Assembly (NCBI GenBank): GCA_000002445.1
Contig: CP000069.1
Location: 128,001-192,000 of the forward strand
Source of the DNA: Trypanosoma brucei
Taxonomy: Eukaryota
Direction: 5' to 3'
DNA length: 64,000 nt
The notes under the pieces were generated by a model. That model did no database searches. It saw only the letters and a list, made by a program, of their open reading frames with translations, and was not told where the DNA came from. The position numbers and the translations under genes are program-made. Shown piece by piece: positions 1-59,297 of this stretch (position 1 is its first letter; the number at the start of each line of letters is the position of its first letter).

Positions 1-1819
1 AAGTGTTGGAGAGATACACAGCAAGCACATAAAGTTGCTGCGCAAGGACAGGCAGTAAGTGTATTACGTTTCTCCTAAACAATTTCATGCGGGGTCGAAG
101 TGTCATAGGACTGATGAACACTAAATCTTTTCGGTCCAGAAGCCCTCCAGGCATGATACCAAATACTGCAGATACATCCCTGTTATCCTGTACTTGCTCA
201 AGGGATTGCGTCACATTCTCTGAAGATACTGTTAGGGGATGGAAAAATATTCTATTGTCAATATTCTCCGCTTCCTTGCCATGAACCTCGGCACCAAGGA
301 ACCACTTCCTGCTCGCACGTAATGCAATTTTATTATCTGCGAGAAGCAAAAAGAGGCCACTCAATGGCGCACCCACATGTACATTGGCACTCGAGCACTC
401 TGATACACCCCACGTTAGATGTCCTTCCCACAAAGGCGCTGGTCGGAAGCCATCCATTATACTCTTCATATATACCATACTGCCACCTTGATTGCATTCA
501 CACATGGCACCCTGTAATGCAACGGCCTCATTGCACTCACCACCAAAGTCACCAACCACAAGGTCATCAATCACGTAGCGACGCTGCTTGTACAGAGATT
601 CCCTGAATGATGTACGGTTCGTCAGCTGTGGGGCGTTATTCAGAGCTTCGAAGAGAACTTCTCCCGCAAGCCACCCATACACCATCATCTCACCTGCGTT
701 GTCGTCCTCAAGGTAGTGATCGGGTTTCTTAAAAAAGTTCCAGTCATTGTTTGTCCTGAGGTAGTTGTCCATGTCATGCTGGAAGCGCTGAATCAGTGAG
801 AACCGAGTATCGTTAGCGAGCGGCACTGTTCCAGTTGTGATTAGCTGTCCAGGAGTGAATGTACGATTAGCTAACGCCAATGCCTCACGCCACATCTTGA
901 TCAAAAAATTTTGCTGTAGTGAAGTAGAAAGAAGATACGCATTGGCAGTGCGGTTGTCCTGTGCTACCTTCTTGATGAACCACTTTGCTGTATTACCCAG
1001 GGATGAAAACAGCAATATAGCCTGTGGGCGCGTAGCAACAAATTGTCTCCACCTGGTGTTCAAATCATCCTCAGAGATATTTTGATTCTCACTCTCCTTC
1101 ACAACGAACATTCCACACAGCTCGCGACCCATCATTTCCAATATCTGCACAGTAAACTCATACGGTCCCATACTGGCGGTGCTGCTCTTCACGTGCATCA
1201 TACCTATTCGTGGGACACGGAGGTAAACAACAGCATAACGAATGAGGGCGAGGAGTTCAGCATTGGGTTCGACACTTATGAAATAAAGGTGAGGGTTCCA
1301 ACCACGGACCTCACTGGAGTACGCAACGGGAGCGAGGGCAACAAGATCATGTTCCTTCAGTTTATCACTGACCCACGAGACGTGATTAGTACCCAGCGGC
1401 CCGAATACAACTAATAACTTGTCTTCACTTTGATTCATTCCCTGCTGAAATATGTCCTCGATTGTCGCATTGGGTGATGGGGGACGGATGACAGATATTG
1501 TCGCATTAGAGCCCGTCTTCCAGCTGTGGGCACTCAGTGATGCGTCAAAACCGGCATTAAGATCGTTAACTTCATCGTCAGAATATTCCGGATTATACAT
1601 CATGGATAGCACTTTTACCGTCACATTACTCGCTTCCGCGCACACAGGTGGCATCCACATGAGTAGCAAAGGCAACAAGTGTAGCAGTGACATAGCAGTA
1701 ATGACAGGTGAGTGCTTGTACTTGCTGTAACGCCTTGCAGGGCTCCTTGCGGTAAGGTTCCGCCTGCAGTTTCCATGAGGGTACACACATCCTCTTCCAC
1801 CACCTTCCTGCCAGCACAT
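1..1819 (-). CDS. GRESAG4: receptor-type adenylate cyclase (GRESAG4-like), 5'-partial: N-terminal ~600 codons; the rest of the gene lies beyond the window start
   Basis: nt 1-1817 are near-identical to nt 11388-13204, the N-terminal half of the complete cyclase ORF 9385-13227. ATG (revcomp cat) is at 1817-1819. The same antisense ORF pattern is present as in the complete copies. The ORF track does not report it because it runs off the edge, so intactness of the frame was only spot-checked. Confidence 0.55.
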   Translation of the reverse strand, partial: MCWQEGGGRGCVYPHGNCRRNLTARSPARRYSKYKHSPVITAMSLLHLLPLLLMWMPPVCAEASNVTVKVLSMMYNPEYSDDEVNDLNAGFDASLSAHSWKTGSNATISVIRPPSPNATIEDIFQQGMNQSEDKLLVVFGPLGTNHVSWVSDKLKEHDLVALAPVAYSSEVRGWNPHLYFISVEPNAELLALIRYAVVYLRVPRIGMMHVKSSTASMGPYEFTVQILEMMGRELCGMFVVKESENQNISEDDLNTRWRQFVATRPQAILLFSSLGNTAKWFIKKVAQDNRTANAYLLSTSLQQNFLIKMWREALALANRTFTPGQLITTGTVPLANDTRFSLIQRFQHDMDNYLRTNNDWNFFKKPDHYLEDDNAGEMMVYGWLAGEVLFEALNNAPQLTNRTSFRESLYKQRRYVIDDLVVGDFGGECNEAVALQGAMCECNQGGSMVYMKSIMDGFRPAPLWEGHLTWGVSECSSANVHVGAPLSGLFLLLADNKIALRASRKWFLGAEVHGKEAENIDNRIFFHPLTVSSENVTQSLEQVQDNRDVSAVFGIMPGGLLDRKDLVFISPMTLRPRMKLFRRNVIHLLPVLAQQLYVLAVYLSNT

Positions 1820-2111
1820 ATTTTCGGGAATGTGTGACACTTTTCGTGTGTGAAATCTTATGTCCTAAGGAAGAATATCAAAAGAGGGAAAATAGAAATC
1901 AGTAAGATTACACTTCCAGACAGTTGGATGCTATAACAAGTTCCCGACAAAACCAAAACAATGCTTAAAAAGCAATGAAGGCACGTCAAGGTAGCGAGAG
2001 GCGACTCGTTTATGATGTCACTGTAAATTGCGAGCAAATGATAGAAAGGGACAACCGACACGCTGGTAGGTAATGGTGTCACACAAACAAACACGTATAT
2101 GTATTTCATGT
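1820..2111 (-). repeat. U5: conserved ~300-bp 5' flank found upstream of every full-length cyclase copy (also 13207-13553, 22619-22978, 34046-34347)
   Basis: Near-identical sequence in four copies; contains the same 83-93-aa spurious ORF each time. Confidence 0.8.
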
Positions 2112-4735
2112 GCGTTGCTGCTTCTTTCCCGCAAGGAAGTATTTAAGTGTGATGTGGGGCAAGAGTTTGGATTGTTTCTTATTTCGGTGCCGCAGTCACT
2201 TGTTTGTTGTTTTGTTTCCGCCAGCGTCTACCTCGGCTAATGCGTCTCGGCTCTTAATAATTTCTGTTGTGCCCTTCGCCTTTTGTGTGGCTGCCTGGCT
2301 GGCTGTTCCTCTCATATACTTCTTAAAGGCGCTTTCCAGACAGGAAAAGTTTCCCCTTGGGCACGAATGTCGCGTAGCACATGCAGTGGAAGAAGGGCGT
2401 AAGAACATGCGCGACGGAAGAACCGAATCTCATCCAGTTCCGCTTTCTCTTTTTTTTCTCCTTTGTACCCTACTTTACTTGCAAACGCCGCAATCATGTG
2501 GAAACACTTGGTCCCCTCTTATGACATCAATCATCTGCCTTTTGGGATGCATTGTCACTCCTCCCTTTTCCTTCATTCATCTTCGTGTTGTTGCGTCGTC
2601 ACTCACTCATCCGGTTAGACACACCCTCCACATCCATTCGCACCATTTTCCTCATATTCCGAGTCTCATGCAGCAGAGAGCATGTATTTATCCATTTTAT
2701 TTCTTTCCTTGGGTCCACCCAACAAGTTTCGTATTTGGACCGTAACACAAATTTCATTTCCTGGTCGCAACCCAAACGCCGTTCGCGATCAGACGAGTTT
2801 CAATTCCGGGTAATGGGCCCCTTTCCACTTTGAAATGATTGAACCCTCTTTTTCGCACTTCCAATGGTTGCTGCCACCGTCACCACACCTTCTCCACGTA
2901 GCGTTGGAAAGAAGTAAGAAATAATAAAAACGCATCTGAGCAACGCAGCAGCGATCAGCCAGTGGACCTCATCAGAGTTTGTGCCTCCAATCTCATTCCC
3001 AAACCAAAAAATTAATCGGGCCCGCATGCGGCACGAGGCGTCCGGCGACTACGGGGGTTTACAAAAGAAGGAAAGTGATGTAACAAAAGGAGTTACATAA
3101 ACATCGCGACCGCACGCACTCCGGCCATACAGGGCTGGAAAATTAATAAAACAACCCGCTCAGGGATAACAATTGCCCTTGAGGGAAAAAGGTTGGATGC
3201 CTGCAGCCGCACGAGTTCCGCTGCGATTCAGGTGAGTTTATCCTTTCCCCCTGAGGGTCGACAGTGTTTCCCTCCATTTGTTCCCTTCCCAAATAATATC
3301 TTCAGCACGTAGCAGTATTTTTGATATTCCAAAGCGGCTGCCAGTGCGTACACTCCTGCATGGGGGGAAAAGCCCCAAGTGAGGGCGGCAGATATGCGCA
3401 AGTAACAATCAGAGCCCATGCACGCAAACACACATGATGTAAAGGGAAGCATGTAACAGGTATGCCAAATGCTCAGTTGAGGTTACACACTGCAGCGACG
3501 TAGCCGCTCCCTCCCGCCACAACTCGCCGTAGCTCCTCATCGCACAGTTAAAACGTCAAGGGTTCAGTCTAGAATTACCACAAAATACGGATAAATGAGG
3601 TTTGTCCCTATAAAGGAGCGGCATTTCTGCACTCCCCTCGAGTGTCCAAACAGTGTTGTAAATAACGGAAGGATATTATAGGCTCAGCAATATTAACAGA
3701 GTGAACGTGTTACAAAACTCCCTCACAATACAATAATTAGTATAAGCTGCAATAACTGCGACGGTGAGGGAACTTTGTTATACTGCGAGGCAACGCGGGT
3801 TTCAGTACATAACTAAGCTCATGCATCGACATCACACTCTGGAGGGAATGGAGGCAATCACATACCTTAAATCCTTACGGCAACACAAATGAGTGAAGGG
3901 AAAGAAAGCATGCAACTGGTGAAACAACATGTAACATCAGCAATGCAGAGGGTGATAAGGGTTGTATATCCGAAGAGAGAGATACAACAGCCCACATAAC
4001 ACCCAACACATACAAACACACATGCAACATAACACTCATTATGAAAAAATATTTAAAGACACCGCTAGCATTAAGTGGATTCAAAAAGAAAAACGTGACG
4101 CAGACACACACGGAAACACAGTTTTGTACCCAAAAGGTTGCGGGATTGGGCGTGAGAGGTGGAATTAAAAAAAAATAAAATAAAATAGTCATGCACTCGC
4201 ACGCTTAAGGACAGACGTGTTGAAAAAGAAATGTTTCACCTTATTTTTCTTAAAGCCTCAAATGGCAAGGACACAAATAAAAAAGAGAGCCCTTAGGGAA
4301 AGTACATAGCTAATCCCGTTTTGTGATTACTCACAGAACAAAAACGTTTTGGTTAAATTAGAAGAAATGTTGAGCCGTCCTGTCTTCCATAAGTGTCGGA
4401 TTTGGAACAGTAAGAAACCAACCGGCGCTGACACGGCAAAACACATGCATGTGTTAATTCAGTGTCTTGAAAGACAACGCATGTGTAATCTAACAGAGGG
4501 CATGTTCCCTCTTAAGATTAGTATGTGCTTTAATGCAGAGGCAGCAGCCACCAAAAATAGAATGTAAAAAATGTAATAATAAATAGATGGCAAAAGATAA
4601 AAATAGATACAAAAGACAAACCCTACCGAGACTACGTTAAAATTCACTAACAACTACTACAATCGGTATGCTAATTAACTTTTCCGCCGAGTAAAACTAA
4701 GAGATTTGTACGCTTTATGACGTGCAACACTACCA
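2112..4735 (-). repeat. S spacer copy 1 (~2.6 kb intergenic segment between the 3' end of a degenerate cyclase and the U5 flank of the next full-length cyclase); other copies at 31444-34045, 42810-45407 and a truncated copy at 54421-55706
   Basis: Direct sequence comparison: the same blocks (e.g. MLPFTSCVFACMGSD-encoding stretch, CCFFPARKYLSVMWG-encoding stretch) recur in all copies in the same order. Confidence 0.8.
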
Positions 4736-6460
4736 CTAATGTAACGACGGAAGCGGACACCCAAAGTGGCCTTCTCTGAAATGTGAACCAACGAATGGAA
4801 CAATTATGATTGAGCCCTCTTCAGTACTCACAGAAGCTTCACTGCTCCCACTTTGAGCGCTACGGTTAGCGACACGCCCAACCTTAACTGCAATGCGACG
4901 CACCACTTCCTCACAGTAGGCGTCATCCCACTCGAATGCAGCTTCACGGGGAAGAGGCACACGCCAATGCTCACAAAGCGACGCCAGAAGATTCCCCCGT
5001 TGCGCTGCTTTAAAAGTTCGGAAAACAGACTGCAGTGAGTTCAATATCGATTGTGCTGATTCACTCAGCTCAGCACGTGAAGAACTGTGGTCGCTTGTGG
5101 AGGTTGTCGTGCCATCCTCGTCTTCAAAGAATTCGCGATCCAGCCGTAATGCAGCAAAGTTGCGGCCAGGCACGGCATTCAACTGGTACATTTCCACAGG
5201 ATCATTCACGCCGCGAAGTGCAACATCACCAAGTGCAGTGACATCAATTTGCTCACGCTCCTCAGCTGACAGTGACATGTAAACCTCATGCGTCATCAGC
5301 ACCTGACCACCATTTGCTACACTCTCTGTCCTTTCTGCCATGTTTGGAGTCCGCCCATAGTAGTCATATCCCTTCGTCACTTCATCGTGTCGGATGTCGC
5401 ACAACCCGGTGTGGATTCCAACACGTACACGCAGGCCATTCCACAAACGACTGTACACTTTAAGGTCCAACCGCGCAGTTGGCGGTGTGTACTTCTCGTC
5501 CTCCTCCGCACGCTGCTGCTCCAACTGCTGGTAAGAATCATCAACTGCATTTGTTCCCCAGTCATGATGCAAGAAACACAGCTGTAATTCCTGTGCGAGT
5601 TGGACGGCAGCGAAAGGACTCTTACTCGCTATCATGAACGAATCCCCAACAGTTTTGACTTCGTAGCACTTATACCTCGCAATCAGTGAACGAATCAAAT
5701 AGTGATGTGCCGCAACGGCATCGGGCATCAGTTCAGGGTGTGCAGCCCACAACGCAGTGCTGCTCTCAATGTCAGTAAATATTAGTGTCACGGGGTCAGT
5801 TTGTTCCTTGGGTGCAAGATTGTTATCACGGGCATTCCGGTGTGTTGCTAATATAACAACCACAAGAACCGTAACAAGCGGCACCAACATTACGACGAAG
5901 CCAACTGCAATAGCGGCAATTTGCTCAGTCATCTGTTGGATCCATCTCGGTTCATCATAGGTCACTGACGGTGTTGCAGACGACAGCGCAGAGGACACAA
6001 AAGGGTTTAGAACATGTGACATCGACCATACAAAAATATGCATCGCACCACAGTTGACAACAGTGCTTCGCCTCAAGTCAAGTTTCGTTCGTACACTTGT
6101 CTCCAAACGACCCATACATTGCAGGACACTTCCCATTGCGTATGCGATGGCAGACCCAAGTAGTGACAACGGTTTCCACTTCGACTCATTCTGCACGATC
6201 TTGCGGAACTCACGTACTGTTTTGGACTCCGTGATCTTATCCCTCCGATGTGACAGATTCGTTGCGAATAGCAAGGGGTTAGAAAATGGCTTTTCATGGA
6301 AGGCATTCACGAGTTCGCCGTGGATTGGTGCATCATCGAAGAATAGGACAAAGACGTGCGCATTACGGTGTTTGTTAGGGTGAAAGAGGATTATGGGGAT
6401 ATTATATGGGATAAGACCTACAACCAATACCTGACATGCAGTTGACAGCTTGTCTCTCAA
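4736..6460 (-). CDS. open TM + class III adenylate cyclase catalytic domain frame of P1 (574 codons from a TTG; first in-frame ATG at 6134-6136 would give a 466-aa ectodomain-less cyclase)
   Basis: Contains a TM helix (IAAIAVGFVVMLVPLVTVLVVVIL) and cyclase motifs FTDIESSTALW, KTVGDSFMIA, VGIHTG, DYYGRTPNMAERTES. The ORF-track start codon is TTG (revcomp caa at 6458-6460), not ATG. Confidence 0.55.
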   Translation of the reverse strand: MRDKLSTACQVLVVGLIPYNIPIILFHPNKHRNAHVFVLFFDDAPIHGELVNAFHEKPFSNPLLFATNLSHRRDKITESKTVREFRKIVQNESKWKPLSLLGSAIAYAMGSVLQCMGRLETSVRTKLDLRRSTVVNCGAMHIFVWSMSHVLNPFVSSALSSATPSVTYDEPRWIQQMTEQIAAIAVGFVVMLVPLVTVLVVVILATHRNARDNNLAPKEQTDPVTLIFTDIESSTALWAAHPELMPDAVAAHHYLIRSLIARYKCYEVKTVGDSFMIASKSPFAAVQLAQELQLCFLHHDWGTNAVDDSYQQLEQQRAEEDEKYTPPTARLDLKVYSRLWNGLRVRVGIHTGLCDIRHDEVTKGYDYYGRTPNMAERTESVANGGQVLMTHEVYMSLSAEEREQIDVTALGDVALRGVNDPVEMYQLNAVPGRNFAALRLDREFFEDEDGTTTSTSDHSSSRAELSESAQSILNSLQSVFRTFKAAQRGNLLASLCEHWRVPLPREAAFEWDDAYCEEVVRRIAVKVGRVANRSAQSGSSEASVSTEEGSIIIVPFVGSHFREGHFGCPLPSLH

Positions 6461-8230
6461 ATTAGGACCTTCACCACTCGCAACAAAGAAGCTTAGTGAT
6501 GTGTTAAAGTTGTCAAGTGTTTTTGCAACATATTCCTAATTCCTCTCGTATCACCACCACGACACACAATGACATGCATTCTTCCTGCACCATTTTGTAT
6601 AATATGCTCAACTATCATAAATAACTGCTGCTCATTTGTTGGTAACAGGTGGATCACATTCCTTCTGGGGTTACTCGGTTGTGATGTGAGTATTATAGGA
6701 TCGATGAATGCCATACCCTTCGTCCGCAGTAACGAATTATCCACGACACCAAGCACAGCAGTTACAACTCGTTTCTCAACATCATTATACAGAGTTGCAC
6801 AAGTTTCGTAAGATTTCGAGGATAGTCAGTGTAAAAAGAAACCATCAGAGTGACCCAGTTGACCTTTGCCAACAACATGAGGGACACCATCGTATACCAT
6901 CTATGCAGCACGCAGTGCCTTTGGGTCATCGGTTATATTAAACATGACCCCACTCAATGGGCCATACAACTGTGGCAGGTCTCGATAACAGCGAGATGAA
7001 CCAAGGGTTAATATAGCTTCCTTCATAGGGTGTAGATGGAGATCCTTTTCCACCTTCTTCATGCACATCACACTCCCACCTTGGTTACGTAAACACGATA
7101 CACCCCGCTCTCCCGCCATATTACGGCACTCACCACCAAAGTCACCAACCACAATATTATCAATTGGATAACGACGTTTATTGTACAGTGATTTCATAAA
7201 TACACCCCTGCTAGTTAGCTATTCGTGACAACTCAGTGCCTGTTTCAATACCTCTTCAGCAACCCATCTGTTCAATGTCAGCTCAGCTTCAGCGTCTTGC
7301 TCGGTGAAGTTATTTTCGTTAATATCCCACCTTGTGCGCTTATAGTTATTACCATTAACCTTTAACAACATAGTCATATCATCCCTGAAACGCCTGACAG
7401 CTTTGTATGTGTCACCCTTCGTAATTAGGTCAGCCCCAGTTATTATTATTTTATCAGCCACAAACTCGTCTCTACCCAATTTATATGCCCACTTGTTCTT
7501 GATGGCGTGTTGGAGTGCAGAGGGTGTATGAATAAATATTCGCCTCTTGTCCTGTGGTCATATAATCATTTCATGGGGAATCTCTTCATATCAGGGATTG
7601 GAGAACCAAATACAATCATTCCCTGAGGTCCAGTATCGGCAACCTTATTCCACTCCGCACTGAAGCTACTGTTATCCGATTCCTTACCAATTTGACTCTT
7701 CAATGCAAAAAAATAACAACTAAACAACTTGCGATTCATCCGTGTTGCCAACTACGCAGCAAGCTTATACTCATCATCACCATAAGAAACATCTTTCAAA
7801 TACATGAAATCCAGTCGGTGTGACCGTAACTGAGTGATAGCATAACGGAAAAGAGCAAGCATCTCAACGGCGAGTGATGCTTCCAGGAGTCATAAATTGG
7901 GATTCCAACTGTGTACCCTACTGAATCCTGTGAAGGGTAAGAAATCAACTACACATTCTTTTCATTGAAATATTTGGTTAAGTTGAGAGTATTTTTGTCA
8001 CCCACAGGTTCCAGTATAATGGCAAGCTCATCACCGTAATTGGTTGTACAGATGGCGTATCCAAAGTCATCCATAGACGGAACATGTGCAACTGCCACAG
8101 ACACACGGAAGCGACTTCCCGTTGGTAATAGATGCGTTGAAACCTGCAATAATAGGATCACATACCTTTGCTGAAATCTTGTCACTGTATAACATGTTGT
8201 ATACCCTTACCCATATTAATCCATTTGCAA
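4736..8230 (-). pseudogene. P1: divergent GRESAG4-like adenylate cyclase, N-terminal extracellular region broken by at least 5 frameshifts/stops but colinear with the full-length gene; C-terminal TM+cyclase half intact
   Basis: Short minus-strand ORFs 7949-8185, 7219-7479, 6901-7197, 6493-6756 are each homologous, in order, to consecutive parts of the full-length cyclase ectodomain (e.g. YPIDNIVVGDFGGEC vs YVIDDLVVGDFGGEC; RRNVIHLLP shared). The frames differ between pieces. Confidence 0.75.
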
Positions 8231-9384
8231 GCTATACTTCAGCCAGCAGCTGTAGTAACATAGAAAAACACCACGTAAGTGACTACGCCATCTCTAGCAT
8301 GTAATTCACGCATGGAGGTAACCGTGATACTAGTAACTCAACGTAATTCAACTTTCAAACTACAGGACAAAAACGGCATAATAACAAAGTATTGGTACAA
8401 GATTAATAGACTGCATATGTATGTGTATATGTAAAAGCGTGGGAAAGGGAACTACTGTAGTGGATAACATTACACAAACCATAACAGCGAGAAAGTAGTT
8501 CAACACACATTCCCCCATACACCCACATATCATTCATGTATCCGATACAAAAACATAAAACATCACTAGGCATAAGGGTAAATGTGTAGATAGAACATTA
8601 CAGTATCATAAACTGGATTGCCATTAACAAAAACACAGCACACTAACAGTCACAGTTAACACTCAAACTGTAAATTTTAACTCACAACATCACGGCAGAC
8701 ATTGCTCAGTTTCATATTCCTTGACTGTCTAGGAGTAAAAGAGAGTGTGCGAGAGAATATGAGGAAAGTTTCAGCGACCATAGAGAAATATAAAGGAAGT
8801 TATACACATGTATCAGATATTGCAAATAGTTAGATGCAGCAAGGTGATTAAGAGATACCTTACAAGCCAGCATCTCCGAATGAAAAAAAAAGATTAGGGT
8901 AGACGCGAGGGATAAGCACAGGAGGTCACTTTTACTTCGCTATAGCCTCCGCTTCATGGGCATCACCTTATTATCAAACATATTTTTAAATGCAAGGACA
9001 CAGCTCCTAACAACACATTAGAGGTGGAGCGCCTCACATGACTACCGCCCACACGGACGGCAATATAAATTCAAATAAGATATTATTTAGAAGAAGTTGA
9101 GCATCAATGGCGGCGTGGGTGAACACATCCCTCACTACGTTAAACAGAAAGTTAACGACCCCCGAATATTGTAATCAAAAAATGGTGTGCCCATTTCAGA
9201 AGTAAAATGCATCCCGTACACAAGGATATTTAAAGCATCCAGCATATGAAGAAAATATTGCATGCGCAAAAAGTTGGGACGCAAAATGATAAAAATCGTT
9301 TATACAAGCCTGCTATGAAAACACAAAATGAATTATGTAAACATTATTATCCATTTACAACAACAAAACATACATACATCAATG
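8231..9384 (-). repeat. T spacer (3' flank of full-length cyclase up to the 5' end of the degenerate paralog); other copies 26798-27949 and 38155-39319
   Basis: Three near-identical copies, always between an F stop codon and a P copy. Confidence 0.75.
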
Positions 9385-12300
9385 TCATGAAGGATATTGG
9401 CTGGCACTCTCAACACTTTCCAGGTCAATCAAGTGCAGAGTGCAGCGTCGTCCCTCAACATAGGAAAAGTTTGAAGATGAAGCAACCGTTGCAACAGTAG
9501 CTCCTCCAGGTGAAAAGAGACTTCCACCCCTTTCCAATGATGTCACACTGCTGGAAGTATTCCTCGTTCCAAAATCCATAACACAACCCACCTTTGCAGC
9601 AATCCGACGGGTAACACAGCGACAACTGGCTTCATTCCAAGCATCCACCCCTGGGGGCTTCTTAACATGCCAACGCTCACAAAATGTTGCAAGCATCTTC
9701 TGTCGCTGGATAACTGGAAATGCGCCAATGAGAGCATCAATGCAACCAGCAACCTGTTGAGCGGTGGCAGTTAAACCACACTCATTAAAGCTCGACTCAC
9801 TAGCGCTACTACCTGTTCCAACATCTTCTTCATCCTCGATTTCACGTTCCAGCCGTAATGCAGCAAAGTTGCGGCCAGGCACGGCATTCAACTGGTACAT
9901 TTCCACAGGATCGGGCACACCACGTAGCGGCACATCACCAAGTGCAGTGACATCAATTTGCTCACGCTCCTCAGCTGAAAGTGACAGGTATGTTGAGCCT
10001 GTCATCAGCACCTGACCACCATTTGCTACACTCTCTGTCCTTGCTGCCATGTTTGGGGTCCGCCCATAGTAGTCATATCCCTTCGTCACTTCATCGTGTC
10101 GGATGTCGCACAACCCGGTGTGGATTCCAACACGTACACGCAGGCCATTCCACAAACGACTGTACACTTTAAGGTCCAACCGCGCAGTTGGCGGTGTGTA
10201 CTTCTCGTCCTCCTCCGCACGCTGCTGCTCAAACTGCTGGTAAGAATCATCAACTGCATTTGTTCCCCAGTCATGTTGCAAGAAACACAGCTGTAATTCC
10301 TGTGCGAGTTGGACGGCAGCGAAAGGACTCTTACTCGCTATCATGAACGAATCCCCAACAGTTTTGACTTCGTAGCACTTATACCTCCCAATCAGTGAAC
10401 GAATCAAATAGTGATGTGTCGCAACGGCATCGGGCATCAGCTCAGGGTGTGCAGCCCACAACGCAGTGCTGCTCTCAATGTCAGTAAATATTAGTGTCAC
10501 AGGGTCCGTTGGCTCCTTGGGCGCAAGATTGTTATCACGAGCATTCCGCAGGGTGATGCGTAGGAGCACACCAAGGGCAATAAAAGGTATCAAGCCGGCT
10601 ATACACCCGATACCTATGCCGGCTATCTGTGACCCTGTGAGACGACTCCCTCCTGAAATGATATACCCCATAGACGGTGTCATGCCGCGTTGCAATATGG
10701 GCACACTTGAATTCAGCACACGCGCCATCGACCATACAGAAATGTTTGTGGCTCCAAAGTTTGAGGCACACTCATTTGCCGAAACACTCGTACCAGAAAC
10801 ACATTCCACATCATTGAAGGGTCCAAATCGCATGTCATCCACTTTGATGTTGGACTCCGTGTAAATGCGGTCTGCCAGCAGCTCTGCATTCACTTTCTTC
10901 ATATTCGGGAGAATCACTTGAAGCAGCCGAGTGGTAACAAAACCTAAGAACGTTAGTGGATCCCAATGCGATTCATTCACAATGCGATGGAAACTCGCAA
11001 CCACATCTGATTTCGTGTCCTTCTCCGCCCAGTGTGGAAAACTCGTCGCGAATAGGAGCCGCTCTGAGCTAGCAATAGACTCTTTACTCGCATTAAACGC
11101 AGCTACAAACTCATCGTAGTACATTGCAAGGTCATTGAATGGAATGAATACACGTGCCCTGCGGTGTGCCTGAAGGTGCCGCGCAACTGCAGCAACGTCA
11201 GTGAGAGTGAGTCCAATAGTAAACACATCTCCATCACCCGAGAGATATGACGCTATCGGGTCACCATCACCAAGTGTCTTGCTGGAATCAAGCGGCACAC
11301 CAAACGTGTCCAATGACTTGTGCAGCAGGCTACTGATCTCCCCTGCTTGCTCACTACGTATGAGTGCATTTACTCCTCTGGAAGAAGTGTTGGAGAGATA
11401 CACAGCAAGCACATAAAGTTGCTGCGCAAGGACAGGCAGTAAGTGTATTACGTTTCTCCTAAACAATTTCATGCGGGGCCGAAGTGTCATAGGACTGATG
11501 AACACTAAATCTTTTCGATCCAGAAGCCCTCCAGGCATGATACCAAATACTGCAGATACATCCCTGTTATCCTGTACTTGCTCAAGGGATTGCGTCACAT
11601 TCTCTGAAGATACTGTTAGGGGATGGAAAAATATTCTATTGTCAATATTCTCCGCTTCCTTGCCATGAACCTCGGCACCAAGGAACCACTTCCTGCTCGC
11701 ACGTAATGCAATTTTATTATCTGCGAGAAGCAAAAAGAGGCCACTCAATGGCGCACCCACATGTACATTGGCACTCGAGCACTCTGATACACCCCACGTT
11801 AGATGTCCTTCCCACAAAGGCGCTGGTCGGAAGCCATCCATTATACTCTTCATATATACCATACTGCCACCTTGATTGCAATTACACATGGCACCCTGTA
11901 ATGCAACGGCCTCATTGCACTCACCACCAAAGTCACCAACCACAAGGTCATCAATCACGTAGCGACGCTGCTCGTACAGAGATTCCATGAATGACGTACG
12001 GTTCGTCAGCTGTGGAGCGTTATTCAGAGCCTGGAAGAGAACTTCTCCTGCAAGCCACCCATACACCATCATCTCACCTGCGTTGTCGTCCTCAAGGTAG
12101 TGATCGGGTTTCGCAAAGCCCTTCCAGTCACTTTTTGTATCCAGGTAGTTGTCCATGTCATGCTGGAAGTGCTGAATCAGTGAGAACCGAATGTCGCTGG
12201 CGAGCGGCACTGTTCCAGTTGTGATCAGCTGTCCAGGAGTAAATGTACGATTAGCTAACGCCAATGCCTCACGCCACATGTTGATAAGAGGACCCTGCTG

Positions 12301-13206
12301 TAGTGAAGTAGAAAGAAGATACGCATTGGCAGTGCGGTTGTCCTGTGCTACCTTCTTGATGAACCACGTGATGCTGCCATCCACCAGGGATGAAAACAGC
12401 AATATAGCCTGTGGGCGCGTAGCAACAAATTGTCTCCACCTGGTGTTCAAATCATCCTCAGAGATATTTTGATTCTCACTATCCTTCACAACGAACATTC
12501 CACACAACTCGCGACCCATCATTTCCAATATCTGCAGAGTAAACTCATACGGTCCCATACTGGCGGTGCTGCTCTTCACGTGCATCATACCTATTCGTGG
12601 GACACGGAGGTAAACAACAGCATAACGAATGAGGGCGAGGAGTTCAGCATTGGGTTCGACACTTATGAAATAAAGGTGAGGGTTCCAACCACGGACCTCA
12701 CTGGAGTGCGCAACGGGAGCGAGGGCAACAAGATCATTTTCCCTTAGTTTATTTCGGACATTTGCGACACGGTCACTACCCAGGGGCCCGAACACAACTA
12801 ATAACTTGTCTTTGCTTTGATCCATTCCCTCCTGAATCATGCCATCAACTGTCGCATTGGGTGATGAGGGACGGATGACAGATATTGTCGCATTAGAGCC
12901 CGTCTTCCAGCTGTGGGCACTCAGTGATGCGTCAAAGCCGGCATTCAGGGCGTTAATTTCACCTTCGGTATAAGCTGGATTATGCATCATGGATAGCACT
13001 TTTACCGTCACATTACCGTTTTCTGCGCACACAGGTGGCATCCACATGAGTAGCAAAGGCAACAAGTGTAGCAGTGATACAGCAGTAATGACAGGTGAGT
13101 GCTTGTACTTGCTGTAACGCCTTGCAGGGCTCCTTGCGGTAAGGTTCCGCCTGCAGTTTCCATGAGGGTACACACATCCTCTTCCACCACCTTCCTGCCA
13201 GCACAT
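9385..13206 (-). CDS. GRESAG4: receptor-type adenylate cyclase GRESAG4-like, full length (F1)
   Basis: 1273-aa frame from ATG (revcomp cat 13204-13206). The ORF-track start at 13227 is a GTG. It has a hydrophobic signal core (VITAVSLLHLLPLLLMWMPPVCA), a long extracellular region, one TM (IAGIGIGCIAGLIPFIALGVLL), then a class III cyclase domain with FTDIESSTALW / KTVGDSFMIASKSPF / RVGIHTG / DYYGRTPNMAARTES. Confidence 0.9.
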   Translation of the reverse strand: MCWQEGGGRGCVYPHGNCRRNLTARSPARRYSKYKHSPVITAVSLLHLLPLLLMWMPPVCAENGNVTVKVLSMMHNPAYTEGEINALNAGFDASLSAHSWKTGSNATISVIRPSSPNATVDGMIQEGMDQSKDKLLVVFGPLGSDRVANVRNKLRENDLVALAPVAHSSEVRGWNPHLYFISVEPNAELLALIRYAVVYLRVPRIGMMHVKSSTASMGPYEFTLQILEMMGRELCGMFVVKDSENQNISEDDLNTRWRQFVATRPQAILLFSSLVDGSITWFIKKVAQDNRTANAYLLSTSLQQGPLINMWREALALANRTFTPGQLITTGTVPLASDIRFSLIQHFQHDMDNYLDTKSDWKGFAKPDHYLEDDNAGEMMVYGWLAGEVLFQALNNAPQLTNRTSFMESLYEQRRYVIDDLVVGDFGGECNEAVALQGAMCNCNQGGSMVYMKSIMDGFRPAPLWEGHLTWGVSECSSANVHVGAPLSGLFLLLADNKIALRASRKWFLGAEVHGKEAENIDNRIFFHPLTVSSENVTQSLEQVQDNRDVSAVFGIMPGGLLDRKDLVFISPMTLRPRMKLFRRNVIHLLPVLAQQLYVLAVYLSNTSSRGVNALIRSEQAGEISSLLHKSLDTFGVPLDSSKTLGDGDPIASYLSGDGDVFTIGLTLTDVAAVARHLQAHRRARVFIPFNDLAMYYDEFVAAFNASKESIASSERLLFATSFPHWAEKDTKSDVVASFHRIVNESHWDPLTFLGFVTTRLLQVILPNMKKVNAELLADRIYTESNIKVDDMRFGPFNDVECVSGTSVSANECASNFGATNISVWSMARVLNSSVPILQRGMTPSMGYIISGGSRLTGSQIAGIGIGCIAGLIPFIALGVLLRITLRNARDNNLAPKEPTDPVTLIFTDIESSTALWAAHPELMPDAVATHHYLIRSLIGRYKCYEVKTVGDSFMIASKSPFAAVQLAQELQLCFLQHDWGTNAVDDSYQQFEQQRAEEDEKYTPPTARLDLKVYSRLWNGLRVRVGIHTGLCDIRHDEVTKGYDYYGRTPNMAARTESVANGGQVLMTGSTYLSLSAEEREQIDVTALGDVPLRGVPDPVEMYQLNAVPGRNFAALRLEREIEDEEDVGTGSSASESSFNECGLTATAQQVAGCIDALIGAFPVIQRQKMLATFCERWHVKKPPGVDAWNEASCRCVTRRIAAKVGCVMDFGTRNTSSSVTSLERGGSLFSPGGATVATVASSSNFSYVEGRRCTLHLIDLESVESASQYPS

Positions 13207-13553
13207 ATTTTCGGGAATGTGTGACACTTTTCGTGTGTGAAATCTTATGTCCTAAGGAAGAATATCAAAAGAGGGAAAATAGAAATCAGTAAGATTACAC
13301 TTCCAGACAGTTGGATACTATAACAAGTTCCCGACAAAACCAAAACAATGCTTAAAAAGCAATGAAGGCACGTCAAGGTAGCGAGAGGCGACTCGTTTAT
13401 GATGTCACTGTAAATTGCGAGCAAATGATAGAAAGGGACAACCGACACGCTGGTAGCTAATGGTGTCACACAAACAAACACGTATACGTATTTCATGTGT
13501 GTCGTTGTTTTCCTTGCTACTGACATTTCATTACGAAATATGGATCTGTCTTC
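13207..13553 (-). repeat. U5 5' flank of F1 (inner end of left inverted arm)
   Basis: Homology to 22634-22978 in inverted orientation ends at about 13553. Confidence 0.7.
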
Positions 13554-22618: not shown

Positions 22619-22978
22619 CAAGCGATAACTACATCAATGCCGGATCCATATTTCGTAATGAAATGTCAGTAGCAAAGAAAACAACGACACACATGAAATA
22701 CATATACGTGTTTGTGTGACACCATTACCTACCAGCGTGTCGGTTGTCCCTTTCTATCATTTGCTCGCAATTTACAGTGACATCATAAACGAGTCGCCTC
22801 TTGCTACCTTGACGTGCCTTCATTGCTTTTTAAGCATTGTTTTGGTTTTGTCGGGAACTTGTTATAGTATCCAACTGTCTGGAAGTGTAATCTTACTGAT
22901 TTCTATTTTACCTCTTTTGATATTCTTCCTTAGGACATAAGATTTCACACACGAAAAGTGTCACACATTACCGAAAAT
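22619..22978 (+). repeat. U5 5' flank of F2
   Basis: Matches 13207-13553 in reverse complement and 34046-34347 directly. Confidence 0.75.
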
Positions 22979-25900
22979 ATGAGCTGGCAGGAAGGTGGTG
23001 GAAGAGGATGTGTGTACCCTCATGGAAACTGCAGGCGGAACCTTACCGCAAGGAGCCCTGCAAGGCGTTACAGCAAGTACAAGCACTCACCTGTCATTAC
23101 TGCTGTATCACTGCTACACTTGTTGCCTTTGCTACTCATGTGGATGCCACCTGTGTGCGCGGAAGCGAGTACTGTGACGGTAAATGTGCTATCCATGATG
23201 CATAATCCAGCTTATACCGAAGGTGAAATTAACGCCATTAATGCCGGCTTTGACGCATCACTGAGTGCCCACAGCCGGAAGACGGGCTCTAATGCGACAA
23301 TATCTGTCATCCGTCACCCATCACCCAATGCGACAGTTGAGGAGATATTTCAGCATGGAATGAAACAAAGTGAAGGGAAGTTATTAGTTGTATTCGGGCC
23401 CCTGGGTAGTGACCGTGTCGCAAATGTCCGTGATAAACTGAAGGAACATGATCTTGTTGCCCTCGCTCCCGTTGCGCACTCCAGTGAGGTCCGTGGTTGG
23501 AACCCTCACCTCTATTTCATAAGTGTCGAACCCAATGCTGAACTCCTCGCCCTCATTCGTTATGCTGTTGTTTACCTCCGTGTCCCACGAATAGGTATGA
23601 TGCACGTGAAGAGCAGCACCGCCAGTATGGGACCGTATGAGTTTACTGTGCAGATATTGGAAATGATGGGTCGCGAGCTGTGTGGAATGTTCGTTGTGAA
23701 GGATAGTGAGAATCAAAATATCTCTGAGGATGATTTGAACGTCAGGTGGAGACAATTTGTTGCTACGCGCCCACAGGCTATATTGCTGTTTTCATCCCTG
23801 GGTAATACAGCAAAGTGGTTCATCAAGAAGGTAGCACAGGACAACCGCACTGCCAATGCGTATCTTCTTTCTACTTCACTACAGCAAAATTTTTTGATCA
23901 AGATGTGGCGTGAGGCATTGGCGTTAGCTAATCGTACATTCACTCCTGGACAGCTAATCACAACTGGAACAGTGCCGCTCGCCAGCGACATTCGGTTCTC
24001 ACTGATTCAGCACTTCCAGCATGACATGGACATCTACCTCAGGACAAACAATGACTGGAAGGGCTTTGCGAAACCCGATCACTACCTTGAGGACGACGGT
24101 TTAGGTGAGATGATGGTGTATGGGTGGCTTGCGGGAGAAGTTCTCTTCGAAGCTCTGAATAACGCTCCACAGCTGACGAACCGTAAATCATTCAGGGAAT
24201 CTCTGTACAAGCAGCGTCGCTACGTGATTGATGACCTTGTGGTTGGTGACTTTGGTGGTGAGTGCAATGAGGCCGTTGCATTACAGGGTGCCATGTGTGA
24301 ATGCAATCAAGGTGGCAGTATGGTATATATGAAGAGTATAATGGATGGCTTCCGACCAGCGCCTTTGTGGGAAGGACATCTAACGTGGGGTGTATCAGAG
24401 TGCTCGAGTGCCAATGTACATGTGGGTGCGCCATTGAGTGGCCTCTTTTTGCTTCTCGCAGATAATGAAATTGCATTACGTGCGAGCAGGAAGTGGTTTC
24501 TTGGTGCCGAGGTTCATGGCAAGGAAGCGGAGAATATTGACAATAGAATATTTTTCCATCCCCTAACAGTATCTTCAGAGAATGTGACGCAATCCCTTGA
24601 GCAAGTACAGGACAACAGGGATGTATCTGCAGTATTTGGTATCATGCCTGGAGGGCTTCTGGATCGAAAAGATTTAGTGTTCATCAGTCCTATGACACTT
24701 CGACCCCGCATGAAATTGTTTAGGAGAAACGTAATACACTTACTGCCTGTCCTTGCGCAGCAACTTTATGTGCTTGCTGTGTATCTCTCCAACACTTCTT
24801 CCAGAGGAGTAAATGCACTCATACGTAGTGAGCAAGCAGGGGAGATCAGTAGCCTGCTGTACAAGTCATTGGACACGTTTGGTGTGCCGCTTGATTCCAG
24901 CAAGACACTTGGTGATGGTGACCCGATATCGTCATATCTCTCGGGTGATGGAGATGTGTTTACTATTGGACTCACTCTCACTGACGTTGCTGCAGTTGCG
25001 CGGCACCTTCAGGCACACCGCAGGGCACGTGTATTCATTCCATTCAATGACCTTGCAATGTACTACGATGAGTTTGTAGCTGCGTTTAATGCGAGTAAAG
25101 AGTCTATTGCTAGCTCAGAGCGGCTCCTATTCGCGACGAGTTTTCCACACTGGGCGGAGAAGGACACGAAATCAGATGTGGTTGCGAGTTTCCATCGCAT
25201 TGTGAATGAATCGCATTGGGATCCACTAACGTTCTTAGGTTTTGTTACCACTCGGCTGCTTCAAGTGATTCTCCCGAATATGAAGAAAGTGAATGCAGAG
25301 CTGCTGGCAGACCGCATTTACACGGAGTCCAACATCAAAGTGGATGACATGCGATTTGGACCCTTCAATGATGTGGAATGTGTTTCTGGTACGAGTGTTT
25401 CGGCAAATGAGTGTGCCTCAAACTTTGGAGCCACAAACATTTCTGTATGGTCGATGGCGCGTGTGCTGAATTCAAGTGTGCCCATATTGCAACGCGGCAT
25501 GACACCGTCTATGGGGTTTTCCATTGCAGGAGGGAGTCGTCTCACAGGGTCACAGATAGCCGGCATAGGTATCGGGTGTATAGCCGGCTTGATACCTTTT
25601 ATTGCCCTTGGTGTGCTCCTACGCATCACCCTGCGGAATGCTCGTGATAACAATCTTGCGCCCAAGGAGCCAACGGACCCTGTGACACTAATATTTACTG
25701 ACATTGAGAGCAGCACTGCGTTGTGGGCTGCACACCCTGAGCTGATGCCCGATGCCGTTGCGACACATCACTATTTGATTCGTTCACTGATTGCGAGGTA
25801 TAAGTGCTACGAAGTCAAAACTGTAGGGGATTCGTTCATGATAGCGAGTAAGAGTCCTTTCGCTGCCGTCCAACTCGCACAGGAATTACAGCTGTGTTTC

Positions 25901-26797: not shown

Positions 26798-27949
26798 CAT
26801 TGATGTATGTTTTGTTGTTGTAAATGGATAATAATGTTTATATAATTTAAATTATTTTTAGATTAGTCTTGTATAAGGCATTTTTAACTCTTTGCTCCCC
26901 AACTTTTTGCGCATGCAATATTTCCCTCATATGTTGGGTGTTTAAATATTTTTATGCACAGGGATGCATTTTATTTCTGAAATGGGCACACCATTTTTTG
27001 ATTGTAATATATGAAAGTCGTTAATTTTCTGTTTAACGTAGTGAGGGATGTGTGCATCCACGCCACCATTAATGCTTAAATTTTCGTAAATAATATCTTA
27101 TTTAAATTTAAATTGCCGTCCGTGTGGGCCGTTGTCAAGTGAGGCGCTCCACCTCTAATGTGTTGTTAGGAGCTGTGTCCCTGCATTTAAAAATGTGTTT
27201 GATAATAAGGTGATGCCCATGAAGCGGAGGCTATAGCGAAGTAAAAGTGACCTCCTGTGCTTATCCCTCGCGTCTACCCTAATCTTTTTTTTTCATTCGG
27301 AGATGCTGGCTTGTAAGAGGTATCTCTTAATCACCTTGCTGCATGTAACTATTTGCAATATCTGATACATGTGTATAACTTCCTTTATATTTCTCTATGG
27401 TTGCTGAAACTTTCCTCATATTCTCTCGCACACTCTCTTTTACTCCTAGACAGTCAAGGAATATGAAACTGAGCAATGTCTGCCGTGATGTTGTGAGTTA
27501 AAATTTACAGTTTGAGTGTTAACTGTGACTGTTAGTGTGCTGTGTTTTTGTTAATGGCAATCCAGTTTATGATACTGTAATGTTCTATCTACACATTTAC
27601 CCTTATGCCTAGTGATGTTATATTTTTTTGTATCGGATACATGAATGATATGTGGGTGTATGGGGGAATGTGTGTTGAACTACTTTCTCGCTGTTATGGT
27701 TTGTGTAATGTTATCCACTACAGTAGTTCCCTTTCCCACGCTCTTACATATACATATGCAGTCTATTAATCTTGTACCAATACTTTGTTATTATGCCCTT
27801 TTTGTCCTGTAGTTTGAAAGTTGAATTACGTTGAGTTACTAGTATCACGGTTACCTCCATGCGTGAATTACATGCTAGAGATGGCGTAGTCACTTACGTA
27901 GTGTTTTTCTATGTTACTACAGCTGCTGGCTGAAGTATAGCTTGCAAAT
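26798..27949 (+). repeat. T spacer copy 2
   Basis: Near-identical to 38155-39319 and to the reverse complement of 8231-9384. Confidence 0.75.
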
Positions 27950-34045: not shown

Positions 34046-34347
34046 AGAAGCAGCAACGCACATGAAATACATATACGTGTTTGTGTGACACCATTACCTA
34101 CCAGCGTGTCGGTTGTCCCTTTCTATCATTTGCTCGCAATTTACAGTGACATCATAAACGAGTCGCCTCTTGCTACCTTGACGTGCCTTCATTGCTTTTT
34201 AAGCATTGTTTTGGTTTTGTCGGGAACTTGTTATAGCATCCAACTGTCTGGAAGTGTAATCTTACTGATTTCTATTTTCCCTCTTTTGATATTCTTCCTT
34301 AGGACATAAGATTTCACACACGAAAAGTGTCACACATTACCGAAAAT
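34046..34347 (+). repeat. U5 5' flank of F3
   Basis: Same flank as the other U5 copies. Confidence 0.75.
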
Positions 34348-59200: not shown

Positions 59201-59297
59201 CCATTTGCAAGCTATACTTCAGCCAGCAGCTGTAGTAACATAGAAAAACACTACGTAAGTGACTACGCCATCTCTAGCATGTAATTCACGCATGGGG

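What the first reader, a model, noticed from the sequence alone, without database searches (positions are those of the whole stretch)
9385..13206. Cyclase cores of F and P copies are near-identical at nucleotide level while sensor domains and tails are highly diverged: concerted evolution confined to the catalytic core
Across about 600 nt of the cyclase core (e.g. cttgcgcccaaggagccaac...gattcgttcactgattg) the F copies and P copies look nearly identical to the base by eye. Immediately upstream (juxtamembrane, e.g. IVNESHWDPLTFLG vs IVQNESKWKPLSLLG) and downstream (tail, QRQKMLATFCERWHVKKPPGVDAWNEASCRCVTRR vs QRGNLLASLCERWRVPLPREAAFEWDDAYCEEVVRR) amino-acid identity falls to roughly 50%. So homogenisation by gene conversion appears restricted to the catalytic core. 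The disabled paralogs are thereby kept as a reservoir of, or a sink for, cyclase-core sequence.
Basis: seen in the sequence. Interest (0 to 1): 0.5.

Follow-up and report, generated by a model that had tools for sequence, protein, structure and literature searches.

The report
Gene–pseudogene exchange in trypanosome cyclase array
In a Trypanosoma brucei array of receptor adenylate cyclase genes, intact genes and neighbouring pseudogenes share a 0.7-kb catalytic-domain segment because of recombination rather than selection, and the segments on either side come from two different cyclase subfamilies: a clear example of a known process.

Summary
The window is T. brucei brucei TREU927 chromosome 6. 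It holds three intact GRESAG4-type cyclase genes (F), one further F copy cut by the window edge, and four frameshifted paralogs (P). F and P are 93–96% identical in nucleotides over one 708-nt tract, the cyclase domain ±10–15 codons. Identity is about 46% on both sides, and the breakpoints are the same in every copy.

Selection cannot explain this. Synonymous divergence is 0.08–0.17 in the tract and saturated (0.76–0.82) in the flanks. Cores of other T. brucei-group paralogs are only about 70% identical to F or P.

The interpretation needs correcting. The flanks did not diverge from a common ancestor; they belong to two subfamilies in reciprocal order. F has an A-type sensor and core with a B-type tail. 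P has a B-type sensor, an A-type core and an A-type tail. The F tail, the intergenic DNA and the P sensor together form one colinear block from a B-type tandem array.

Conversion has continued since the array was amplified. There are no fixed F/P differences in core nt 1–617 and 13 shared polymorphisms. P1 and P2 each carry their own F-like tract, and divergence spikes only in P cores. So P is mainly a sink. The reservoir role is not shown for cores.

This is a known kind of process and of modest interest.

The parts
9385..13227 (-). F1, an intact receptor-type adenylate cyclase (GRESAG4). The ATG is at 13206. Its layout is A-type ectodomain, TM, cyclase core, then a B-type C-terminal tail.
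   Evidence: ORF of 1280 codons. Pfam hits PF25495, PF25493 and PF00211. 95.8% amino-acid identity to a TREU927 GRESAG4 protein.
22958..26797 (+). F2, an intact cyclase (ATG at 22979). From the ATG it is identical to the TREU927 protein P0001.
   Evidence: 100% identity over 1272 aa.
34327..38154 (+). F3, an intact cyclase (ATG at 34348).
1..2123 (-). F0, the 5' part of a further F copy plus its upstream region. It is cut by the window start and its core lies outside the window.
   Evidence: blastn 95% to F1. tblastn aa 1-614 at 91%.
9841..10548 (-). F1 shared core tract (708 nt, aa 894-1129). PF00211 (aa 904-1114) lies inside it. Core nt 1-617 is A-type. From nt 618 (window 9931 downwards) F is B-like.
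25634..26341 (+). F2 shared core tract.
37003..37710 (+). F3 shared core tract. Its haplotype matches the F-like tract in P2.
4736..8261 (-). P1, a full-length B-type cyclase pseudogene. The ectodomain is spread over three reading frames with 12 in-frame stops. The C-terminal 600 codons are open.
   Evidence: tblastn with the B1 protein and with F1.
27911..31443 (+). P2 pseudogene. It has an extra stop at about 31132, early in the tail.
39279..42809 (+). P3 pseudogene.
55707..59241 (-). P4 pseudogene. It stands alone, with no F copy upstream of it in the window.
5132..5839 (-). P1 core tract. It contains an F1/F2-like conversion tract at core nt 117-379 (window 5461-5723 at minimum).
   Evidence: run of 10 of 10 F-type sites, p about 5e-6.
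30340..31047 (+). P2 core tract. It contains an F3-like conversion tract at core nt 310-558 (window 30649-30897 at minimum), including the GSTYLSLS block.
41703..42410 (+). P3 core tract, mostly the 'pure' P/L001 type.
56106..56813 (-). P4 core tract.
26251..30339 (+). B-derived block in unit 2: the 3' edge of the F2 core, the F2 tail, the intergenic region, and the P2 ectodomain with its TM. The equivalent blocks are about 9931-5840(-) in unit 1 and 37620-41702(+) in unit 3.
   Evidence: One colinear 4185-nt blastn alignment (76.5%) of window 25624-29673 to the Tbg chr4 B array, L010 12525-16649. pS to B1 is 0.34-0.37 in all the B-derived coding parts.

Best explanation
F and P are reciprocal mosaics of two adenylate-cyclase subfamilies. 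They share only an A-type catalytic core.

Most likely origin (inferred): an A-type gene recombined, within the conserved cyclase domain, with one unit of a B-type tandem array. The A-type gene had the arrangement ectodomain A, core, tail A', as in the hybrid-like gene on locus L001. The B unit supplied tail B, intergenic DNA and ectodomain B. The result was ectoA-core-tailB (F), then intergenic DNA, then ectoB-core-tailA' (P), with the core duplicated. The B-type ectodomain then decayed into a pseudogene, and the F-P unit was amplified into an inverted pair of arrays.

Since amplification (shown): short homologous gene-conversion tracts, about 250-500 nt where they can be delimited, have kept moving between the cores, mostly from a nearby F into a P. 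The exchange is limited to the core simply because the flanks are about 46% identical and offer no homology. That limit is inferred from the known length and identity dependence of RAD51-mediated recombination in T. brucei.
For: 1. The cause is not selection.
- F×P pS is 0.08-0.17 in the core and 0.76-0.82 in both flanks.
- Cores of five other T. brucei-group paralogs, one T. congolense gene and one T. vivax gene are 69-71% identical to F and P, with pS 0.64-0.81.

2. The mosaic.
- The F ectodomain groups with L004 and L001 (90-94% nt).
- The P ectodomain and TM are 72% nt identical to B1 (pS 0.34) and 47% to F.
- The F tail is 80% identical to B1 (pS 0.37; 73-75% aa to P0010 and P0026) and 42-46% to A-type tails.
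- The P tail is 98-99% identical to L001 and 73% to L004.
- Window 25624-29673 aligns colinearly with the stretch B core, tail, intergenic DNA and next B ectodomain.
- L001 matches the F1 upstream region, ectodomain and core. Through the core it then matches the P core, tail and downstream region.

3. Ongoing conversion.
- There are 0 fixed F/P differences in core nt 1-617 and 8 fixed differences at 618-636.
- There are 13 polymorphisms shared between the F and P groups.
- 458 of 1176 site pairs fail the four-gamete test, and PHI gives p=0.0005.
- P2 and P3 differ by 0-5 mismatches per 250 nt over about 6 kb, but by 7, 14 and 17 in the core windows. pS is 0.10 in the core and 0.00-0.04 in the flanks.
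- P1 and P2 carry different F-type runs, p≤1e-5. The P2 run carries F3-specific alleles.

4. The same core/tail junction is reused in the Tbg chr4 array. B1 and B3 are 99-100% identical through the core and 50% identical in the tail.
Against: - Only seven copies from one genome were compared. There are no population or other-strain data.
- The direction of transfer rests on using L001 as a proxy for the unconverted P-type core. L001 is a contaminant contig in a Schistosoma assembly, and its F/P join could be an assembly collapse across the repeat.
- The B comparator comes from another subspecies and chromosome (pS about 0.35), so the real donor is unknown.
- A simple single crossover predicts a B-type 5' core in P, which is not seen. 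A gap-repair event or later F-to-P conversion must be assumed.
- The 10 clustered sites at core nt 549-558 are probably one event, which inflates the run statistic for P2.
- The L004 core has two divergent patches, so exchange with unseen paralogs also occurs.
Confidence: 0.75

Rival explanations
1. Purifying selection on the catalytic domain alone keeps the F and P cores alike. The flanks drifted apart and no recombination was involved.
For: The cyclase homology domain is the most conserved part of trypanosome cyclases, at 83-87% amino-acid identity according to the review PMC6027212. The tract coincides with PF00211 ±10-15 codons.
Against: Synonymous sites are homogenised too (pS 0.08-0.17 against saturation in the flanks). 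Equally constrained cores of other paralogs are only about 70% identical, with pS 0.64-0.81. P copies are pseudogenes and carry substitutions next to catalytic motifs: A to E in NMAARTES in P1 and F to S in IFTDIESS in P4. The edges are knife-sharp.
Confidence: 0.02
2. A single ancient domain-shuffling event produced the mosaic, and nothing has been exchanged since. The present similarity is just the age of that event.
For: All four P copies share identical breakpoints. F×P core pS (about 0.12) is similar to F×L004 pS in the ectodomain and core (0.11-0.16), so one old event could set the baseline.
Against: P2 and P3 have virtually identical flanks but 38 core differences. P1 and P2 carry different F-type tracts. 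There are 13 polymorphisms shared between F and P, no fixed differences in core nt 1-617, and PHI p=0.0005.
Confidence: 0.1
3. The P C-terminal ORF (short stub, TM, cyclase and tail; about 470-600 codons) is an expressed N-terminally truncated cyclase. Selection, together with conversion, maintains it.
For: Three of the four P copies keep 600 codons open. The ectodomain has about one disabling lesion per 45-60 codons, and the chance of none in the 245 pre-core codons is roughly 0.015. The catalytic residues are retained. The P-type tail occurs in an intact gene, L001.
Against: P2 has a premature stop. pN/pS of the P pre-core against B1 is 0.76, and it is about 0.7 among P copies. There is no ATG until about codon 130 of the ORF, and no signal peptide. 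No annotated protein matching the ORF turned up, though that search was incomplete.
Confidence: 0.1
4. Assembly artefact: reads from F cores were mis-assigned to P copies, or the reverse, in a repetitive array.
For: The 708-nt repeat is comparable to Sanger read length, and the arrays are repetitive.
Against: Each of the seven cores is distinct (1-5% apart). The boundaries are identical in four copies. An independent assembly (L001) has the same P-type core and tail joined to an F-type head. The mosaic is also seen in proteins annotated in other assemblies.
Confidence: 0.03

Closest known systems
Partial gene conversion and chimaeric copies in T. brucei tandem gene arrays (Jackson 2007, BMC Evol Biol, PMC1855330). 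That study includes GRESAG4 arrays Tb28, Tb42 (chr 6, 5 copies) and Tb62.
   Same: Same organism, gene family and process: short conversion tracts between neighbouring duplicates. This locus is probably the paper's array 42, but that match was not verified.
   Different: That study treated only the intact copies, and for array 42 it listed one 261-bp event in the ectodomain. The interleaved pseudogenes, the A/B reciprocal mosaic and the core-limited F-P exchange are not described there.
Tandem gene-pseudogene conversion systems, for example human CYP21A2/CYP21A1P in the RCCX module (from general knowledge).
   Same: A functional gene and a nearby disabled paralog exchange short tracts by non-allelic homologous recombination. 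Unequal crossover between them gives hybrid genes, as the L001-type F-head/P-tail gene may be.
   Different: In the human case the flow of clinical interest is from pseudogene to gene. Here the detectable flow is mostly from gene to pseudogene, and homology covers only one domain because the partners come from different subfamilies.
Segmental gene conversion that assembles mosaic VSGs from pseudogenes in T. brucei (from general knowledge; mentioned in PMC1855330).
   Same: Same organism and recombination machinery. Pseudogene segments can end up in intact genes, and the P-type tail is part of the intact L001 gene.
   Different: Nothing links this locus to expression sites or antigenic variation. 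Transfer of P core sequence into F is not demonstrated.
Ends-in, gap-repair (Campbell-type) integration that duplicates the region of homology. This is the classical yeast plasmid integration model of Orr-Weaver, Szostak and Rothstein (from general knowledge).
   Same: It predicts exactly the observed product: the inserted unit flanked by two copies of the recipient's homologous segment.
   Different: It is purely an inferred analogy for a past event. No circular intermediate or break is observable here.

Membership tests
Trypanosomatid receptor-type adenylate cyclase (ESAG4/GRESAG4 family) | Class III cyclase catalytic domain (PF00211) on the cytosolic side | tested here: met
   PF00211 has E=5.9e-45 in F1 (aa 904-1114) and E=2.2e-44 in the P3 ORF.
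Trypanosomatid receptor-type adenylate cyclase (ESAG4/GRESAG4 family) | Large extracellular domain like a periplasmic binding protein, followed by a single TM | tested here: met
   F1 matches PF25495 and PF25493. The hydrophobic segment just before RNARDNN is visible in the alignment. F2 is 100% identical to an annotated TREU927 GRESAG4 protein. In P the domain is recognisable but broken by frameshifts and stops.
Interlocus (non-allelic) gene conversion / concerted evolution | A delimited tract much more similar than its flanks, at synonymous sites as well | tested here: met
   Identity is 0.93-0.95 against 0.46, with chi2 of 417-465. pS is 0.08-0.17 against 0.76-0.82.
Interlocus (non-allelic) gene conversion / concerted evolution | Phylogenetic incompatibility and polymorphisms shared between paralog classes | tested here: met
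   13 shared polymorphisms, 458 of 1176 site pairs incompatible, and PHI p=0.0005.
Interlocus (non-allelic) gene conversion / concerted evolution | Copy-specific tracts with an identifiable donor haplotype | tested here: met
   P1 has a tract at core nt 117-379 that is F1/F2-like. P2 has a tract at nt 310-558 that is F3-like. Only the P cores show a divergence spike.
Interlocus (non-allelic) gene conversion / concerted evolution | Paralogs within a lineage more alike than orthologs between lineages | not tested
   No orthologous F-P array from another strain or species could be fetched. TREU927 genes are not in the contig index, and the Tbg chr6 locus L004 holds a single A-type gene.
Family-wide homogenisation of the cyclase core across all T. 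brucei cyclases | All paralog cores near-identical in nucleotides | tested here: not met
   The cores of L002, L003, L005, L006, L008 and L010 are 69-75% identical to F and P, with saturated pS.
Processed or unprocessed pseudogene (the P copies) | Disabling lesions and relaxed constraint | tested here: met
   Each ectodomain has 2-4 frameshifts and 7-16 stops. pN/pS against B1 is 0.76 in the pre-core. Expression could not be tested.

The most novel reading that the evidence does not exclude
The conserved cyclase core may act as a universal recombination 'joint' that lets T. brucei shuffle sensor ectodomains and C-terminal tails between cyclase subfamilies. On this reading the interleaved pseudogenes would serve as stores of tail and core modules that can be put back into intact genes by crossover in the core. 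The F-head/P-tail gene on L001 and the independent tail swap at the same junction in the Tbg chr4 array (B1/B3) would be examples. That would be a combinatorial diversification system for a host-interaction gene family, analogous to VSG mosaic formation.
Probability: 0.2. Interest if true: 0.6.

Novelty: new member of a known kind. Interest (0 to 1): 0.35.

Why it matters
It shows concretely how the roughly 80-member T. brucei cyclase family is built from exchangeable modules (sensor, core and tail). It also shows that annotated pseudogenes are still active recombination partners of their intact neighbours.

There are practical consequences:
- Reads, RNAi triggers and CRISPR guides aimed at the catalytic domain of these chromosome 6 genes will also hit the pseudogenes.
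- Whole-gene phylogenies of the family mix incompatible histories. Selection scans on such alignments could likewise be misled.
- A Schistosoma mansoni RefSeq gene model (Smp_112590) is actually trypanosome DNA.

Conceptually this is an instance of well-known non-allelic gene conversion limited by homology, so the advance is incremental.

Tried and rejected
- The look-up of encoding contigs for the TREU927 proteins P0001 and P0009 found nothing on record. No other TREU927 DNA was therefore available. The chr7 B-type gene P0010 could be compared only as protein, and the Tbg chr4 array (L010) served as the B comparator.
- The third homolog search, with the P3 ORF, returned only 44-64% hits and missed even P0003. 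It is therefore uninformative about whether the P ORF is annotated anywhere.
- An Rfam scan of the window found nothing.
- The literature search 'GRESAG4 / recombination / chimeric' returned only irrelevant papers. 'GRESAG4 / gene conversion / catalytic domain' returned one paper, which was not opened.
- Family-wide core homogenisation was considered and rejected, as were selection alone and assembly artefact.
- I tried to infer P-to-F transfer from F3-specific alleles. Twelve of about 13 are shared with P copies, but outgroups (L004, B1) often carry them too, so the direction is unresolved.
- Whether L001 is the ancestral 'empty site' or a derived F/P deletion product could not be decided. 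Its head is as far from the F copies as they are from each other, and its tail is as close to the P copies as they are to each other.
Full report
**What the window is**

The window carries large ORFs of 1275-1280 codons at 9385-13227(-), 22958-26797(+) and 34327-38154(+). It also carries 575-codon ORFs at 4736-6460(-), 41082-42809(+) and 55707-57434(-), plus a split one at 29719-31443(+). The long ORFs are receptor-type adenylate cyclases, with PF25495 and PF25493 ectodomains and a PF00211 catalytic domain. [quoted passage not shown] The window is therefore T. brucei chromosome 6.

A fourth F copy (F0) is truncated by the window start. tblastn with a B-type cyclase shows that the short ORFs are the C-terminal ends of four full-length paralogs:
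- P1 4736-8261(-)
- P2 27911-31443(+)
- P3 39279-42809(+)
- P4 55707-59241(-)

Their ectodomains are spread over 2-4 reading frames and contain 7-16 stop codons, so they are pseudogenes. F and P alternate in 11.4-kb units. Two such arrays lie head to head around a 9-kb spacer.

**Checking the observation**

blastn of F1 with its flanks against the window detects F-P similarity only over about 734 nt, at 92.3-94.6% identity. On a codon alignment of the C-terminal halves, mean F×P identity in 60-nt windows is 0.29-0.62 before the tract. It is 0.94-1.00 through most of the tract, falling to 0.83-0.89 at its 3' end, and 0.31-0.62 after it. F×F and P×P identity stays at or above 0.9 almost throughout.

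A maximum chi-square scan finds the same two breakpoints in all four pairs tested, with identity 0.93-0.95 inside and 0.46 outside (chi2 417-465). The tract is 708 nt. It runs from CGGAATGC (the RNARDNN motif directly after the transmembrane helix) to CTGGA(A/T)CG(T/C)GAA (LRL(E/D)RE). In F1 this is aa 894-1129, which encloses PF00211 at aa 904-1114.

The one caveat is that 'identical to the base' is really 4-7% divergence.

**Selection or recombination?**

By the Nei-Gojobori method, F×P synonymous divergence is saturated in both flanks (pS 0.76-0.82) and only 0.08-0.17 in the core.

As a control for what purifying selection alone produces, I fetched genomic DNA for other cyclase paralogs of the T. 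brucei group: T. b. gambiense chr 4, 5 and 11, and T. equiperdum. I also fetched one T. congolense and one T. vivax gene. Their cores are 69-71% identical to both F and P, with pS 0.64-0.81 and pN about 0.17. The 93-96% identity of the F and P cores therefore reflects recent common ancestry of the DNA, not constraint. It is also not a family-wide homogenisation.

**The flanks are not diverged versions of each other**

I call the two subfamilies involved A-type and B-type; these are my own labels.

- *Ectodomain:* the F ectodomain and core group with an A-type gene next to HpHbR on T. b. gambiense chr 6 (L004; 90-93% nt, pS 0.11-0.16).
- *F tail:* it resembles no A-type tail (42-46% nt). It is 73-75% identical in amino acids to the TREU927 chr7 protein P0010 and its chr4 relatives P0025 and P0026.
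- *P ectodomain:* those same B-type proteins are also the closest relatives of the P ectodomain (51-53% aa, against about 30% for all others).
- *P tail:* it is A-like, at 73% nt to L004 and 70-72% aa to GRESAG4.1-type tails.

At DNA level, window 25624-29673 runs from the F2 core through the F2 tail and the intergenic region to the P2 ectodomain. It forms one colinear 4185-nt alignment (76.5%) with a T. b. gambiense chr4 B-type tandem array, running from one B gene's core through its tail and intergenic spacer into the next B gene's ectodomain.

Synonymous distances to that B gene agree across the B-derived parts:
- 0.34 for the P pre-core
- 0.37 for the F tail
- 0.36 for the last 90 nt of the F core
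- 0.69 for both cores at nt 1-617

F is therefore ectoA-coreA-tailB and P is ectoB-coreA-tailA'. The sharp 5' edge of the shared tract is a junction in the P lineage. The 3' edge is a junction in the F lineage, which already lies at core nt about 618, where F becomes B-like (GDVPLRGVPDP).

**A related 'unsplit' gene**

One homolog (P0003) is annotated as Schistosoma mansoni Smp_112590, but its contig is clearly T. brucei DNA. Positions 1-5691 match the F1 upstream region, ectodomain and core at 95.5%. Positions 4958-8713 match the P1 core, tail and downstream region at 98.2%. The two matches overlap exactly in the core. The intact 1254-aa gene has an F-type head and a P-type tail.

This gene equals the F-P locus minus the segment tailB, intergenic DNA, ectoB and one core. 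It is either the ancestral arrangement, a deletion product of F×P crossover in the core, or an assembly join. I could not decide between these.

**Most likely origin (inferred)**

One recombination within the cyclase domain, the only stretch with useful A/B homology, joined an A'-type gene to a unit of a B-type tandem array and duplicated the core. Ends-in gap-repair integration gives exactly this product, with both cores of the recipient type. A simple crossover followed by F-to-P conversion would give the same result. The B ectodomain then decayed and the unit was amplified.

The same core/tail junction has been used independently in the B array. B1 and B3 are 99-100% identical through the core and about 50% identical from LRLDR(E/D) onwards.

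**Ongoing exchange (shown)**

Among the three F and four P cores:
- There is no fixed F/P difference in nt 1-617, and there are eight fixed differences at nt 618-636.
- Thirteen polymorphisms are shared between the two classes.
- 458 of 1176 pairs of informative sites fail the four-gamete test.
- A PHI permutation test gives p=0.0005.

Repeat units 2 and 3 differ by 0-5 mismatches per 250 nt over the roughly 6 kb around P2 and P3. In the three windows covering the P core they differ by 7, 14 and 17. The F cores show no such spike (pS figures).

I then looked at the 36 sites where all F copies differ from the L001 core. P1 has an unbroken F-type run at core nt 117-379. P2 has a different run at nt 310-558. 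P3 and P4 are mostly L001-type. Both runs are significant by permutation (p≤1e-5), with the caveat that sites 549-558 are probably one event. The P2 run carries F3-specific alleles and the P1 run carries F1/F2 alleles.

The pseudogene cores are thus repeatedly overwritten from F copies, so 'sink' fits. Evidence for P-to-F transfer is limited to a possible micro-tract in F3 at nt 27-48, and outgroups leave its direction open.

**Why the exchange is confined to the core**

The flanks are about 46% identical, which is effectively unalignable. Heteroduplex formation cannot extend beyond the core. No selective maintenance of the pseudogenes needs to be invoked. This step is inference from the known homology dependence of recombination.

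**Comparison with the literature**

The general picture of a variable ectodomain, a conserved catalytic domain (83-87% aa) and a variable tail of about 110 aa is textbook for these enzymes (PMC6027212). Positive selection in cyclase ectodomains has been reported; Tb927.6.760 served as the example gene in that paper's structural alignment (PMC2386149).

Partial gene conversion in T. brucei tandem arrays, cyclase arrays included, was catalogued by Jackson (PMC1855330). For the chr6 array ('42', five copies) that paper lists one 261-bp event in the ectodomain and does not consider the pseudogenes. I found no description of the reciprocal A/B mosaic or of core-limited exchange between F and P. The literature tool covers open-access papers only.

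**Verdict**

The gene-conversion reading is supported for the core, but the evolutionary framing was wrong. This is module shuffling between subfamilies followed by homology-limited conversion. It is not differential divergence, and the pseudogenes are not a purposeful reservoir. It is a clean, well-resolved example of a known process. Interest is modest, at 0.35.

Noticed in passing
L001 (NCBI GCF_000237925.1, NW_017386323.1), gene at 2300-6064: A contig and gene model (Smp_112590) in the Schistosoma mansoni RefSeq assembly is T. brucei DNA, 95-98% identical to this window. It is contamination. A second 'S. mansoni' cyclase (P0037) looks like the same problem.
   Followed up: partly
window 13200-13570 and 22619-22985: The two F-P arrays are head to head. 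The inverted-repeat arms (277 nt at 98%, 100 nt at 89%) cover the F1/F2 starts and upstream regions. A 9.0-kb unique spacer separates them, probably a divergent strand-switch region.
   Followed up: partly
window 51707-52657 and 53198-54148 (-): Two tandem genes encode identical 316-aa proteins with the IGP-family C-type lectin domain (PF16825).
   Followed up: partly
window 23115-24111 and 26612-27102 (and the equivalents in F1 and F3): Among F copies, divergence is concentrated in two places. The N-terminal part of the ectodomain has 9-33 mismatches per 250 nt, and the 3' end with the 3' UTR has up to 49 mismatches per 250 nt. Most of the rest of the gene has fewer than 10. This could reflect diversifying selection or exchange with other A-type genes.
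   Followed up: no
window 4736-6535, 41007-42809 and 55707-57509: The C-terminal 600 codons of P1, P3 and P4 have no stop or frameshift. The equally old ectodomain has one disabling lesion per about 45-60 codons. The chance of none in the 245 pre-core codons is roughly 0.015.
   Followed up: partly
L010 10001-13684 and 18381-22250 (T. b. gambiense chr 4): Adjacent B-type cyclase genes are 99-100% identical through the ectodomain and core. Their tails are unrelated, starting exactly after LRLDR(E/D). This is an independent tail swap at the same junction.
   Followed up: partly
window 37990-38154 versus 9385-9460: The extreme C-terminus of F3 (…EGKRGATDLIDLESVGSTC) differs from that of F1 and F2 (…EGRRCTLHLIDLESVESASQYPS). 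It matches the TREU927 paralog P0002, so there is a further small mosaic at the very end of the gene.
   Followed up: no
L004 core nt 91-180 and 271-360: The T. b. gambiense chr6 A-type gene has two patches of 14-20% divergence from F and P inside an otherwise 97-99% identical core. This suggests further patchy exchange with unseen paralogs.
   Followed up: no
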